Of a stretch of 64,000 nt of DNA, positions 21,303-63,312 are shown one piece after another. Positions within the stretch are counted from its first letter, which is position 1. The number at the start of each line of letters is the position of its first letter. Both the position numbers and the translations under genes were made by a program. The stretch lies in the sequence record PQ356294.1; one strand, written 5' to 3'. The notes below the pieces were generated by a model. The model had not been told where the DNA came from. It was given only the letters and a program-made list of their open reading frames with translations, and did no database searches. This DNA is from Escherichia phage Ec_YwIITB1.

Positions 21303-21821
21303 TCAATAACCTCGGTCTTGACGAGCGAAGTTTTCAGCATTTTTCAAATAATAAAGTTTAAAGATTTCTTCAGCCGTAAGACCGAGACCTTGGAACATGT
21401 TTAGAACGAAATGAAGAATATCAATCATTTCGAATTTAATTTCCAACTGGTCTTGTGGAGACAAATCAGTAATTAAAGTTTCACGTCGTTCACCATGCTG
21501 AGCTTTCCAAGGTTTCCATACAGCAGATGCATCTTTTTCACCATTGCTCATACCACCAAGAGAAGTCAATAGTTCGCGGAATTCATCATCAATATAATCT
21601 TTTTGATTACGCAGCCAATCAACAACTTCGCCTGCGGTAGCCAAATCATCAGGATGACGGTTATATTCAGGTTTATCTTTAGCTAAACGAACCTGCAAAG
21701 ATTTCTGCATATCAAGCATAACCTGCAGCGGGTCTTTTTCATCACCGAGAATATCCCAGTATTCATTTTGAGCTTTATCAGCGCCTTCGATCAGTTGTGA
21801 ACATTCATTAAAGTAAGCCAT
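21303..21821 (-). CDS. 56: dCTPase/dCTP pyrophosphatase (gp56)
   Basis: 172-aa ORF from ATG at 21821 (MAYFNECSQLIEG...), AAAGGAAA SD; matches T4 gp56 as recalled; track start 21914 is a GTG extension. Confidence 0.88.
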   Translation of the reverse strand: MAYFNECSQLIEGADKAQNEYWDILGDEKDPLQVMLDMQKSLQVRLAKDKPEYNRHPDDLATAGEVVDWLRNQKDYIDDEFRELLTSLGGMSNGEKDASAVWKPWKAQHGERRETLITDLSPQDQLEIKFEMIDILHFVLNMFQGLGLTAEEIFKLYYLKNAENFARQDRGY

Positions 21822-21892
21822 TATTTTTCCTTTCAATTCATGGGTTAGTAGATTAATTATACAATAAATATATAAAGCAATAAGGAGGATAT

Positions 21893-22093
21893 ATGGCACA
21901 AAAATTAATGGCACTTGTTAATGCCATAAAAGGTAATAAAAAACGTATAGCTTTTACTATTTCTGCTATGGTAGGAATTTTACTCTGGAACTTTATTTTA
22001 TCGCCAATTGCAATTGCGCATGGCGTTAATATTCCAGTAGTTACTCTTGATACATTCGTAGATCTAGCATTTGCTTTAGTTGGGTTAATTTAA
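21893..22093 (+). CDS. small hydrophobic protein (66 aa) on the opposite strand
   Basis: Plus-strand ORF with strong AAGGAGG SD 6 nt upstream of ATG; predicted transmembrane segments. Confidence 0.45.
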   Translation: MAQKLMALVNAIKGNKKRIAFTISAMVGILLWNFILSPIAIAHGVNIPVVTLDTFVDLAFALVGLI

Positions 22094-23121: not shown

Positions 23122-23286
23122 TTACTCTTCTTTTTCTTTAGATTCCTCTTTTTTCTTTTTAGGAATCTGTTCAGGACCTTTATTTACTACAGCACCTGAT
23201 GTTGTTCCAGTAGAGATATTTTCAGGATTACCACCTGAATCTCCAGCAACCATATCTTCTTTAATAAATTCTTTATATGTTTTCAT
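23122..23286 (-). CDS. hypothetical small protein (54 aa, 61.1-like)
   Basis: ATG at 23286 (MKTYKEFIKEDMVAGD...); under 60 aa, not in track. Confidence 0.4.
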   Translation of the reverse strand: MKTYKEFIKEDMVAGDSGGNPENISTGTTSGAVVNKGPEQIPKKKKEESKEKEE

Positions 23287-23287
23287 A

Positions 23288-23644
23288 TTAACCTCTATTC
23301 ATAAAAGCATTAAAAATTTGGTCATCAATCGATGGAATAGCAACCTTTTCGGCATCATTTAGCAAATCATTAATTTCATCAGATAGCATAACACATGTGC
23401 CTTTATTTCCTGTAATTGTTACTGCACAATTACGAACGTTTTCTTTATTAAATTTTAGGTTAATATTTTCGTAATGAAAATCCTTTAATGCTGAATATAT
23501 TTTTAAAATAAAATTGTCTTTTACTACAATAAATCCAACCTCACTATTAAAACGCGGTTCATGGAAGCTGTAATAAATCTTTTCATCTATGAAATCATAT
23601 GAAATTTTTTCCATTTTTAAATATGAAAATTCAGAACTGTACAT
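23288..23644 (-). CDS. 61.2: hypothetical protein (118 aa), 61.2-position
   Basis: Minus-strand ORF immediately downstream of sp in the 61.x cluster. Confidence 0.5.
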   Translation of the reverse strand: MYSSEFSYLKMEKISYDFIDEKIYYSFHEPRFNSEVGFIVVKDNFILKIYSALKDFHYENINLKFNKENVRNCAVTITGNKGTCVMLSDEINDLLNDAEKVAIPSIDDQIFNAFMNRG

Positions 23645-23656
23645 ACTAACCTCTAA

Positions 23657-23950
23657 TTACTCACCTACCACTTCAGCGATGATATTTTTATTATTAAAGT
23701 TTTTATCGCAATACAGAACATAATTATATTGCATTACACCACCAGATTTAAGCTGTTTTTGCACTTCAGCTTTCATTTCAGGACGATCACGTTCAACGAT
23801 ATTCATAATATCCGCTTCAATTTGAATTTCAACTTCAGTCTGATCTGCAGTCATAGACCATTCGCACAAATCTTTGTCATAACCCGCCATAGCAGGCTGA
23901 GCAGTGCAAGAAGCCAAAGCAAAAATTGCAGCAAAGATAAATTTTTTCAT
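23657..23950 (-). CDS. sp: Spackle (Sp) periplasmic protein
   Basis: 97-aa ORF with signal peptide MKKFIFAAIFALASCTAQPAMA; matches T4 Sp as recalled. Confidence 0.8.
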   Translation of the reverse strand: MKKFIFAAIFALASCTAQPAMAGYDKDLCEWSMTADQTEVEIQIEADIMNIVERDRPEMKAEVQKQLKSGGVMQYNYVLYCDKNFNNKNIIAEVVGE

Positions 23951-24010: not shown

Positions 24011-24310
24011 TTATTTTAAAACTTCTGCATAATCACATGTTACAAACTGTTTCTCTAGTTTAGTAATTTTACGAAAGTATCTTTTGCATTGACGAATCTG
24101 CCGCTTTGTAGGGCGCACAGCAAACTTAATAAATTCCACTCGACCAAATGGAGGGCTTTCTTCTGCTGGAATATCTAACACCAATTCCCACGTATCTGCG
24201 ATAAGTGCTTTGAATTGAGTATTTTTCCTGACATTATACGGTGTAGGTTTAAATAAAACGATATGCATATTATCCTCGGCAATCCACTTCACATACCTTC
24301 TTATCATCAA
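24011..24310 (-). CDS. hypothetical protein (99 aa, 61.4-like)
   Basis: Basic ORF downstream of dmd. Confidence 0.5.
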   Translation of the reverse strand: MMIRRYVKWIAEDNMHIVLFKPTPYNVRKNTQFKALIADTWELVLDIPAEESPPFGRVEFIKFAVRPTKRQIRQCKRYFRKITKLEKQFVTCDYAEVLK

Positions 24311-62673: not shown

Positions 62674-62861
62674 TATTCTTCTACGTGCTGTTTACGACCT
62701 TTCTTATCAATAAAGGTATATTCAACGAATGTTCCAATATAGTCTTTATCTACACCATGCGGACTATTAATTGGACATTTAGTACGGCAAATGCGTTCCC
62801 ATTGACGAATAATTTCCACTTTGTTTTTAGGATCAAACGGATGCGGGTAATGTACTTTCAT
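62649..62861 (-). CDS. hypothetical protein (70 aa)
   Basis: Minus-strand ORF. Confidence 0.45.
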   Translation of the reverse strand: MKVHYPHPFDPKNKVEIIRQWERICRTKCPINSPHGVDKDYIGTFVEYTFIDKKGRKQHVEEYCLKVTWL

Positions 62862-63312
62862 AATCCACCACTATTAAATCAATATCAGGAGTAAACATGT
62901 CGATTAATTTAGAAACCTTATCCCAATCGCCGCCTGCAATACCACAACCGATACGTGGAATGTAAATTACTGGTTTAAACAAAAGGGTTTCTGCCTGTAG
63001 ATTTAATTCTATCATGCAGTTTACTAAAGCACCATAATCAAGATTAGGACCCGGTTCGTATTGTGTATACAAATTATAGCACATACTAAATCCTGTAGGA
63101 TTATGTTTAAAAACAATAGACATATCACCTAATTTATCACGAGAACCGTACTCGGTAGTGGTTTTATCTATTTCTAAAATTTTGGGATAGGCTCTTGCTA
63201 ATTGACCTGCTACGCCAGAGCCCATTGTGTGGAAGCAATTACACCCGTGCGCAATAATATTACCTTGAAGAAATAGGGCGACAATATCGCCCTTGATATA
63301 TTTTACAATCAT
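62833..63312 (-). CDS. macrodomain-like protein (TARG1/DarG-type signature)
   Basis: 159-aa ORF with KGDIV near the N-terminus and IAHGCNCFHTMGSGVAGQLA, resembling the TARG1/DarG macrodomain signature (GDLF...LAHCIS.D..MGAGIA). Confidence 0.55.
   Translation of the reverse strand: MIVKYIKGDIVALFLQGNIIAHGCNCFHTMGSGVAGQLARAYPKILEIDKTTTEYGSRDKLGDMSIVFKHNPTGFSMCYNLYTQYEPGPNLDYGALVNCMIELNLQAETLLFKPVIYIPRIGCGIAGGDWDKVSKLIDMFTPDIDLIVVDYESTLPASV

What the first reader, a model, noticed from the sequence alone, without database searches (positions are those of the whole stretch)
23288..23644. 61.2-position ORF may be an anti-DarT (AdfA-like) counter-defence gene
The 118-aa ORF sits between sp and 61.1, the position of T4 gene 61.2. 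As I recall, the homolog of 61.2 in RB69 was named AdfA after escape mutations to the DarTG DNA ADP-ribosylation defence mapped there. This should be tested, and considered together with the macrodomain ORF at 62833..63312.
Basis: established knowledge. Interest (0 to 1): 0.35.

Follow-up and report, generated by a model that had tools for sequence, protein, structure and literature searches.

The report
Half-size AdfA paralogue, not adfA itself
The 118-residue gene next to spackle in this T4-like phage is a real, conserved, half-length relative of the anti-DarT factor AdfA that often sits beside true adfA in other phages; here adfA itself is missing, and whether the short gene blocks any DarT toxin is untested.

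Summary
The ORF is real: minus strand, 23288-23644, 118 aa, with its own ribosome-binding site, between sp and 61.1 in a Tequatrovirus. dN/dS is 0.05-0.39. It is not the orthologue of T4 61.2 / RB69 adfA (208-212 aa). It is the orthologue of 'RB32ORF033c'. In about 159 sequenced phages that gene lies directly downstream of a full-length adfA; in about 140, including this window and T2, it stands alone; about 236 (T4 type) have adfA only.

Similarity to AdfA covers only AdfA's C-terminal half. It passes Pfam's AdfA cut-off (34.3 vs 27 bits), but 21.9 bits come from an identical 14-residue tail, SIDDQIFNAFMNRG, and the tail-less body gives no hit. AlphaFold models still support body homology. 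AdfA looks like two beta5-alpha-beta units plus a tail helix; the ORF is one unit plus the tail. Secondary structure agrees at 75% of positions in the sequence register.

An invariant Cys occupies the residue that decides DarT1 binding in AdfA (RB69 R164H). Published work treats T2 as lacking adfA, and T2 lacking adfN is DarTG1-sensitive.

Verdict: a single-unit AdfA-family paralogue, probably a binding-type inhibitor with a different target. The macrodomain ORF is the Tk.4/AdfM (anti-DarTG2) homologue.

The parts
23288..23644 (-). ORF118: 118-aa single-unit AdfA-family paralogue, orthologue of RB32ORF033c
   Evidence: ORF list. phrog_4122 E 2e-72. 97.5% identical to RB51 'RB32ORF033c' and 94% to the T2 ORF. 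dN/dS 0.05-0.39. AF2 pLDDT 82.9.
23291..23332 (-). Codons 105-118: the conserved C-terminal tail SIDDQIFNAFMNRG (predicted helix 106-115). Its last codons AGA GGT also supply the Shine-Dalgarno for 61.1.
   Evidence: Identical in T4 gp61.2. Conserved with synonymous changes in RB69 and VR7, and on three unrelated bodies. dS 0.59 and dN 0 against L010. Gives 21.9 Pfam AdfA bits on its own. DNA identity with T4 resumes exactly at 23332.
23411..23446 (-). Codons 67-78: predicted helix KENVRNCAVTIT, equivalent to the AdfA helix that carries the DarT1-specificity residue. Cys73 (23426-23428) aligns with RB69 R164 / T4 H165.
   Evidence: AF2 secondary structure. Ungapped helix alignment. N69, V70, C73 and A74 are invariant in the family.
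23333..23655 (-). Cassette that differs from T4: the ORF118 body plus the 12-nt spacer. T4 has 581 nt of adfA body in its place.
   Evidence: blastn of window against T4: about 95% identity ends at 23656 and resumes at 23332.
23645..23656 (-). 12-nt sp-ORF118 spacer TTAGAGGTTAGT containing the Shine-Dalgarno. It resembles the 3' end of an adfA tail (AGAGGTTAAT) and may be a deletion scar.
23657..23950 (-). sp (spackle), the conserved upstream neighbour of every tail-bearing gene seen
   Evidence: phrog_1586 E 1e-45. Same synteny in T4, RB69, VR7, RB51 and the P0023 contig.
23122..23286 (-). 61.1, the downstream gene; its start lies one base after the ORF118 stop
   Evidence: phrog_1823 E 7e-34. 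Junction sequence.
62833..63312 (-). Macrodomain protein, homologue of T4 Tk.4 / AdfM (anti-DarTG2 factor). A separate gene about 39 kb away, functionally related by theme only.
   Evidence: Pfam Macro 33.8 bits. 58% identity over the full length to T4 Tk.4, E 8e-71. Lies between vs and the tk genes. AdfM function reported in 10.1101/2025.11.20.689424.

Best explanation
SHOWN. ORF118 is an expressed-looking gene under purifying selection, the orthologue of RB32ORF033c. It is a half-length paralogue of AdfA. It has one beta5-alpha-beta unit, an extra helix, and the family's invariant C-terminal tail helix. AdfA has two such units plus the same tail. In this phage, true adfA is absent, so this is the sp-ORF118-61.1 configuration also found in T2.

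INFERRED. Like AdfA, it has no enzymatic fold and no cellular homologues. It most likely acts stoichiometrically, by binding and blocking a host defence effector early in infection. Its unit corresponds best to AdfA's C-terminal unit, which carries the residue that switches DarT1 binding on and off. ORF118 has an invariant Cys at that position and divergent surrounding surfaces. Its target is therefore most likely a different DarT-type ADP-ribosyltransferase variant, or another toxin, and not the E. coli DarT1 tested so far. Because AdfA is in effect a covalent two-unit protein, ORF118 may work as a homodimer. The invariant tail is probably a shared functional motif for a common partner or for assembly. 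The bodies, the N-terminal 20 residues and the pre-tail linker evolve fast and would set specificity.
For: Gene reality.

Paralogue, not allele: adfA and ORF118 lie in tandem in RB51, Ozark and L010. Junction counts are about 236 adfA-only, 140 ORF118-only and 159 tandem.

Homology to the AdfA C-half: BLASTP E 6e-9 and 2e-7. Reciprocal PHROG hits. Pfam AdfA 34.3 bits, above the cut-off of 27. hhalign E 4e-12. Foldseek hit to a 212-aa AdfA-sized BFVD entry, E 7e-5. Secondary structure agrees at 75% of body positions in the sequence register, against 33-52% when shifted by 3 or more. The best ungapped fit is at AdfA residue 100 and the second best at residues 6-7, the N unit.

Non-enzymatic and phage-restricted: no PDB fold match for either model. 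Only three genuine clusters among 1.84 billion representatives, all phage. No NCBIfam hit.

AdfA mechanism: R164H creates DarT1 binding in a two-hybrid assay; T4 AdfA binds weakly.

Tail under protein-level constraint and shared by three body types.
Against: Body homology is weak by sequence once the tail is removed: BLASTP E 0.002 for T4 and no hit for RB69, hhalign E 3e-3 at 10% probability, no Pfam hit. The tail could have been spread by recombination, so common ancestry of the bodies rests mainly on predicted structure. The AdfA model is only moderately confident (pLDDT 72).

No experiment addresses ORF118. The only indirect data are negative for E. coli DarTG1: T2 lacking adfN is sensitive although it keeps its ORF118. 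A T4 transposon screen on DarTG1 found only adfN and the DarTG2 screen only tk.4, but T4 lacks ORF118.

Dimerisation, the role of the tail and the identity of the target are all inference.
Confidence: 0.5

Rival explanations
1. One reading: ORF118 is a functional AdfA equivalent that neutralises DarT1 of the DarTG1 system by binding it.
For: It occupies the same locus and passes the Pfam AdfA cut-off. It retains the unit homologous to the one carrying the DarT1-specificity residue. In the Tequatrovirus records it is about as common as adfA.
Against: T2 carries a 94%-identical copy and no adfA, yet T2 lacking adfN loses about 4 logs on DarTG1. Cys occupies the position of the activating His, and it is invariant. 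The N-terminal unit is absent. Even His-bearing T4 AdfA is too weak to protect T4 at native levels, so a more divergent half-protein is unlikely to do better against this DarT1.
Confidence: 0.1
2. The bodies are unrelated. ORF118 shares only a recombination-spread C-terminal cassette with AdfA. The 45-nt tail would serve as a junction for cassette exchange and as the ribosome-binding site of the next gene. ORF118 would then be an unrelated accessory protein of a hypervariable locus, with a function unconnected to DarT.
For: The tail supplies 21.9 of the 34.3 Pfam bits, and the tail-less body gives no Pfam hit. Tail-less hhalign reaches only E about 1e-3. The same tail sits on a third body type with no significant similarity to either of the others. 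Within Tequatrovirus the tail DNA is identical and marks the exact recombination boundary. The tail's last codons form the Shine-Dalgarno of the downstream gene.
Against: Across genera the tail keeps its amino-acid sequence through synonymous changes and in front of different downstream genes, with dN 0 and dS 0.59, so it is selected as protein. Outside the tail, the motif VGxIxVKDNxI and the helix start ENxxN are shared. Predicted secondary structure matches in the same register at 75% against 33-52% for shifted controls. Foldseek links the models.
Confidence: 0.2
3. The tail is a replisome- or clamp-targeting peptide, like the C-terminal gp45-binding peptides of gp43 and gp55. It would place these proteins at replication forks, where DarT attacks single-stranded DNA.
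For: The tail is a short, acidic-aromatic, C-terminal and apparently flexible helix: pLDDT 50-55 in ORF118. It is conserved across different bodies. The genes lie in the primase-helicase cluster.
Against: The clamp-binding motif in this same phage is SLDFL[FY]: gp43 ends ...KASLDFLFG and gp55 ends ...[11 protein letters not shown]. The tail SIDDQIFNAFMNRG does not match it beyond general character. No interaction data exist.
Confidence: 0.05
4. ORF118 is a decaying remnant, a truncated adfA pseudogene with no function.
For: It is about half the length of adfA and similar only to adfA's 3' half.
Against: dN/dS is 0.05-0.39. Length is conserved (117-125 aa) in three lineages only 41-48% identical to one another. 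It co-occurs with intact adfA in about 159 genomes. It has its own N-terminal strands that are not derived from adfA, and a confident compact fold.
Confidence: 0.03

Closest known systems
AdfA (anti-DarT factor A; T4 gp61.2, RB69 gp61.2; Pfam PF23813; phrog_3781)
   Same: Same locus downstream of spackle. Identical 14-residue C-terminal tail. Shared VGxIxVKDNxI strand motif and ENxxN helix start. Predicted beta5-alpha-beta unit in the same register as AdfA's C-terminal unit. No enzymatic fold and no cellular homologues. Restricted to Tevenvirinae.
   Different: 118 aa against 208-216 aa: one unit instead of two. About 24% identity outside the tail (21 of 89 aligned columns). A separate PHROG (4122). 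Cys instead of His/Arg/Asn at the DarT1-specificity position. An extra helix (residues 89-100) before the tail. It co-occurs with adfA as a neighbouring gene, so it is a paralogue. No functional data exist, and T2, which has only this gene, is treated in the literature as lacking adfA.
RB32ORF033c / RB51ORF035 / phrog_4122 (uncharacterised T-even ORF annotated 'similar to gp61.2')
   Same: This is the orthologous group: 97.5% identity to the RB51 copy, same length, same position directly upstream of 61.1.
   Different: In RB51, RB32, AR1, wV7 and Ozark it follows a full-length adfA. In this window, as in T2, it directly follows sp.
Type III tail-bearing ORFs of Gaprivervirus and related T4-like contigs (VR7ORF039c, about 145 aa; phrog_8539)
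   Same: Same locus and the same C-terminal tail (SVDDQIFNAFMKRD or ...NRG). Weak Foldseek link: E 8e-4, TM-score on the query 0.54.
   Different: No significant body similarity by profile comparison, E 0.05-0.2.
AdfB (ICP1 Gp145) and type II antitoxin-like direct toxin binders
   Same: The proposed mode of action: a small non-enzymatic phage protein that binds and blocks a DarT toxin, with single-residue allele switches.
   Different: No sequence relationship, and a different phage group. Binding by ORF118 is untested.
AdfM (T4 Tk.4) and AdfN (T4 gp30.3), the enzymatic anti-DarT factors
   Same: AdfM is encoded in this window (62833-63312, 58% identical to T4 Tk.4) and belongs to the same layered anti-DarTG repertoire.
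   Different: They are ADP-ribosylglycohydrolases, macrodomain and NADAR respectively, that erase the DNA modification. ORF118 has no such fold.

Membership tests
AdfA (Pfam PF23813 / T4 gp61.2 orthologous group) | Score above Pfam's curated gathering cut-off | tested here: met
   34.3 bits against a cut-off of 27. The result depends on the tail: the tail alone gives 21.9 bits, and the tail-less body gives no hit.
AdfA (Pfam PF23813 / T4 gp61.2 orthologous group) | Full-length, two-unit architecture of about 208-216 aa covering profile positions 1-211 | tested here: not met
   Only profile positions 114-211 are matched. The protein is 118 aa. The AF2 model shows one beta5-alpha-beta unit against two in AdfA.
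AdfA (Pfam PF23813 / T4 gp61.2 orthologous group) | Orthology: the gene immediately downstream of sp that is replaced by nothing else when present | tested here: not met
   In RB51, Ozark, L010 and about 159 records, a full-length adfA and the ORF118 orthologue are adjacent separate genes. ORF118 belongs to phrog_4122 and adfA to phrog_3781.
AdfA (Pfam PF23813 / T4 gp61.2 orthologous group) | Conserved C-terminal tail S[IV]DDQIFNAFM[NK][RK][GD] | tested here: met
   Identical to the T4 gp61.2 tail.
AdfA (Pfam PF23813 / T4 gp61.2 orthologous group) | His at the position of RB69 residue 164 (the DarT1-neutralising allele) | tested here: not met
   Cys73 aligns with RB69 R164 / T4 H165 and is invariant across the ORF118 family.
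AdfA (Pfam PF23813 / T4 gp61.2 orthologous group) | Binds DarT1 and restores plaquing on DarTG1 hosts | not testable with these tools
   The only indirect datum is that T2 lacking adfN, which retains a 94%-identical ORF118, is about 10^4-fold sensitive to DarTG1.
RB32ORF033c group (phrog_4122) | Full-length, high-identity match and position directly upstream of 61.1 | tested here: met
   phrog_4122 positions 1-118 of 118, E 2e-72. 97.5% identity to RB51 RB32ORF033c (H58). Synteny.
AdfM (T4 Tk.4 macrodomain anti-DarTG2 factor), for the ORF at 62833-63312 | Macrodomain, full-length homology to T4 Tk.4, and position between vs and tk.3 | tested here: met
   Pfam Macro 33.8 bits against a cut-off of 22. 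58% identity over 155 aa, E 8e-71. Synteny. The best NCBIfam match is the macrodomain of DarG, far below its cut-off. Anti-DarTG2 activity of this 58%-identical allele is not testable here.

The most novel reading that the evidence does not exclude
The locus downstream of spackle would be a modular anti-defence hotspot. An invariant 14-residue C-terminal helix (S[IV]DDQIFNAFM..) acts as a constant 'handle' for a common partner or for assembly. At least three interchangeable body types provide target specificity: two-unit AdfA, single-unit ORF118 and type III. ORF118 would be the ancestral single unit from which AdfA arose by duplication. It would neutralise a defence effector not yet linked to this family, either a DarT variant other than E. 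coli DarT1 or a different toxin. That would explain why about 300 sequenced T-even phages keep it, half of them alongside adfA.
Probability: 0.25. Interest if true: 0.6.

Novelty: new variant of a known kind. Interest (0 to 1): 0.38.

Why it matters
AdfA is one of very few phage proteins known to block a toxin-antitoxin defence by direct binding. Its structure, its minimal functional unit and the basis of its specificity are all unknown.

This analysis makes three points. First, many T-even phages scored as 'adfA-negative', T2 included, in fact carry a half-size paralogue. Second, AdfA appears to be a tandem duplication of that unit. Third, three otherwise dissimilar proteins at the locus share an invariant C-terminal helix.

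These points give concrete, cheap experiments: trans-expression, a C73H swap, tail deletion, two-hybrid assays and panels of DarT homologues. They could define the minimal toxin-binding module and might reveal a further layer of the anti-DarTG repertoire, which so far comprises AdfA, AdfN and AdfM. The analysis also warns that automated 'AdfA' labels based on the Pfam hit will over-call this gene, because the hit rests on the tail.

Tried and rejected
(1) 'ORF118 is simply the local allele of adfA.' Rejected: the two are adjacent genes in about 159 genomes.

(2) 'Gaprivervirus type III + type II genes are a split AdfA, with type III equal to the N-half.' Short motifs suggested it (NPNAQAY against FPNAQCY), but profile comparison does not support it: E 0.12-0.22.

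(3) 'The tail is conserved only as the ribosome-binding site or coupling element for 61.1.' Rejected: the amino-acid sequence is kept through synonymous changes and in front of different downstream genes in RB69 and VR7, with dN 0 and dS 0.59.

(4) 'The tail is a gp45 clamp-binding motif.' Not supported: gp43 and gp55 of this phage end in SLDFL[FY].

(5) Search for a known fold. Foldseek against the PDB found nothing below E 0.1 for either ORF118 or AdfA.

(6) Search for cellular or distant homologues. Exhaustive phmmer over 1.84 billion representatives found only three phage clusters plus two spurious hits to long repetitive proteins. The word-indexed search found five near-identical clusters. 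NCBIfam found nothing.

(7) Other tail-bearing genes or adfA fragments elsewhere in the window. None found.

(8) The original LeRoux 2022 paper could not be retrieved. Its content is taken as summarised.

Full report
OBSERVATION. The window is a Tequatrovirus (T4-like) genome segment. The 22.0-24.6 kb region is 98% identical to phage YUEEL01 and matches 520 phage records. On the minus strand the gene order is uvsX, 40, 41, dmd, 61.4, sp (23657-23950), the 118-codon ORF (23288-23644), 61.1 (23122-23286) and primase 61. The ORF starts with ATG, 8 nt after a GAGG Shine-Dalgarno, inside a 12-nt spacer that follows the sp stop. It ends one base before the 61.1 start codon. The ORF is real. It matches phrog_4122 end to end at E 2e-72. 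About 294 phage records carry it at 80% identity or more. dN/dS among six orthologues is 0.05-0.39. AlphaFold2 gives a confident compact model, pLDDT 82.9 overall and above 90 for residues 10-100.

WHAT IT IS NOT. T4 gp61.2 is 208 aa and RB69 gp61.2 (AdfA) is 212 aa; they are 67% identical to each other. The window ORF is 118 aa. At DNA level, about 95% identity with T4 runs through the sp stop codon (23656), vanishes over 23333-23655, and resumes at 23332, which is exactly the last 14 codons plus the stop. This looked like an allelic cassette swap. However, RB51 and Ozark carry both genes in tandem: sp, then 61.2 (210 aa), then RB32ORF033c (118 aa, annotated 'similar to gp61.2'), then 61.1. 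A metagenomic contig, L010, does the same. Junction-spanning queries give about 236 records with adfA followed by 61.1 (T4 type), about 140 with sp followed by ORF118 (this window and T2), and about 159 with adfA followed by ORF118. The ORF is therefore the orthologue of RB32ORF033c, a paralogue of adfA. True adfA is absent from this window, and no other copy or fragment was found. The 12-nt spacer TTAGAGGTTAGT before the ATG resembles the end of an adfA tail (AGAGGTTAAT before ATG). That is consistent with loss of adfA from a tandem ancestor, though it is only suggestive.

RELATION TO AdfA. BLASTP aligns ORF118 residues 21-118 with T4 gp61.2 residues 109-208 at 34% identity and E 6e-9, and with RB69 AdfA at E 2e-7. 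PHROG hits are reciprocal. Pfam's curated AdfA family (PF23813) is matched at 34.3 bits against a gathering score of 27, but only over profile positions 114-211. Much of this signal is the C-terminal 14 residues, SIDDQIFNAFMNRG, which are identical in T4:
- The tail alone scores 21.9 bits, and the tail-less body gives no Pfam hit.
- Tail-less BLASTP gives E 0.002 against T4 and no hit against RB69.
- Tail-less hhalign gives E 3e-3 against the AdfA C-half and 1e-3 against the N-half, compared with 4e-12 with the tail.
- Outside the tail, identity is 21 of 89 aligned columns.

Predicted structure supplies the missing evidence. The AdfA model (P0006, 96% identical to T4; pLDDT 72) contains the element series beta5-alpha-beta twice, at residues 2-88 and 98-179, followed by a terminal helix at 196-204. 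ORF118 has one such series: strands 8-17, 22-29, 34-42, 45-51 and 56-64, helix 67-78, and strand 84-87. It then has an extra helix at 89-100 and the tail helix at 106-115. In the register of the sequence alignment, 75% of body positions share the same DSSP state, against 33-52% when the register is shifted by 3 or more. An ungapped slide places ORF118 best at AdfA residue 100 (76%) and second best at residues 6-7 (67.5%). Foldseek against BFVD links the ORF118 model to the VR7-type protein (TM 0.78), to a 212-aa AdfA-sized entry (E 7e-5) and to a 145-aa VR25 protein (E 8e-4). I conclude, at roughly 0.8 confidence, that ORF118 is a single-unit relative of AdfA and that AdfA is an internal duplication of such a unit. 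Neither model resembles any solved structure.

THE TAIL AND THE LOCUS. Cataloguing every ORF that ends in the tail across 26 loci shows three body types. Type I is AdfA. Type II is ORF118 (117-125 aa, in three clusters 41-48% identical to one another). Type III is an ORF of about 145 aa found in Gaprivervirus (VR7, UPEC01) and in several unassigned ~170-kb T4-like contigs. These occur in five arrangements: I, II, I+II, III+II and III. All lie just downstream of spackle. Type III bodies show no significant profile similarity to the other two. The tail is conserved as protein. Across genera its codons differ synonymously and it precedes different genes. Between the window and L010 the tail has dS 0.59 and dN 0, whereas residues 1-20 and 96-104 change rapidly. 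The tail also contains the Shine-Dalgarno for the next gene, and within Tequatrovirus it forms the recombination boundary. It thus has both a coding role and a genomic role. It does not match the gp45 clamp-binding motif SLDFL[FY] of this phage's gp43 and gp55.

FUNCTIONAL INFERENCE. According to the LeRoux laboratory papers:
- AdfA of RB69 is inactive until R164H arises, which creates binding to DarT1 in a two-hybrid assay.
- T4 AdfA has His at that position, binds weakly, and is dispensable.
- AdfN (gp30.3, a NADAR protein) is the main anti-DarTG1 factor.
- T2 'naturally lacks an adfA homolog'.
- T2 lacking adfN loses about four logs on DarTG1.

T2's ORF is 94% identical to the window's. The residue aligned with RB69 R164 / T4 H165 is Cys73, which is invariant in the ORF118 family and lies in the equivalent helix. 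ORF118 is therefore unlikely to neutralise the tested E. coli DarT1. The same papers argue that inactive Adf alleles target other DarT homologues. ORF118 retains the specificity-bearing unit, is kept under purifying selection in about 300 genomes, often sits beside adfA, and lacks any enzymatic fold or cellular homologue. My best explanation is that it is a binding-type inhibitor of a different DarT-like or other defence effector, possibly acting as a homodimer that mimics two-unit AdfA. This step is inference. I put the probability that it is an anti-DarT factor of any specificity at about 0.3, and the probability that it is an anti-defence binder of some kind at about 0.5.

THE MACRODOMAIN ORF. 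The ORF at 62833-63312 (minus strand, 159 aa) has a Pfam Macro domain. It lies between vs and the tk genes. It is 58% identical over its full length to T4 Tk.4. A 2025 preprint shows that tk.4 is the single T4 gene required on DarTG2 hosts and names it adfM. The macrodomain gene is an already described anti-DarTG2 factor, here as a divergent allele, and there is no evidence that it functions together with ORF118.

VERDICT. The ORF belongs to the wider AdfA family through its tail, one motif and its predicted fold. It fails the family's architectural, orthology and key-residue criteria, and the nearest experimental evidence is negative for DarTG1. It is best described as a new, uncharacterised single-unit variant of a known counter-defence family. 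Interest is moderate, because it yields direct experiments on the minimal AdfA module and on the role of the invariant tail.

Noticed in passing
window 62833-63312 (-): Macrodomain protein, 58% identical over its full length to T4 Tk.4, which a 2025 preprint names AdfM (anti-DarTG2 factor). This is a divergent allele; tblastn of the phage collection gives 274 records at 95% identity or more and 2445 below 60%.
   Followed up: partly
L003 2059-2496; L006 1948-2454; L018-L023 near 2100-2560: A third family of ORFs of about 145 aa (VR7ORF039c type) lies downstream of spackle in Gaprivervirus and in several unassigned ~170-kb T4-like contigs. They end in the same tail (SVDDQIFNAFMKRD or ...NRG), but their bodies show no significant similarity to AdfA or ORF118.
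   Followed up: partly
L007 1367-1999 (Ozark), L010 1858-2490, P0019: Some full-length AdfA alleles have Asn (NNINNIAS) at the RB69 R164 / T4 H165 position. This is a third state beside the published His (active) and Arg (inactive), and it is found in genomes that also carry ORF118.
   Followed up: no
window 21303-22093: T4 has dam between genes 56 and 61. The window instead has only a 66-aa plus-strand ORF (21893-22093, RB32ORF030w-like, hydrophobic). tblastn with T4 Dam finds no dam anywhere in the 64-kb window.
   Followed up: partly
window 23645-23656: The sp-ORF118 spacer TTAGAGGTTAGT is nearly identical to the last codons of an adfA tail plus stop (AGAGGTTAAT). It may be a scar of adfA deletion.
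   Followed up: partly
window 24011-24310 (-): The mechanical ORF for 61.4 (99 aa, TTG start) overlaps the end of dmd. The PHROG match begins at residue 15, so the true start is probably the internal ATG (MHIVLF...), giving about 85 aa as in T4.
   Followed up: no
ORF118 residues 1-20 and 96-104 (window 23585-23644 and 23333-23359): The N-terminal strand region and the linker before the tail accumulate non-synonymous changes much faster than the core. Against L010, dN is 0.38 and 0.55 in these two regions and 0.09 in the core. They may be specificity or arms-race surfaces.
   Followed up: partly
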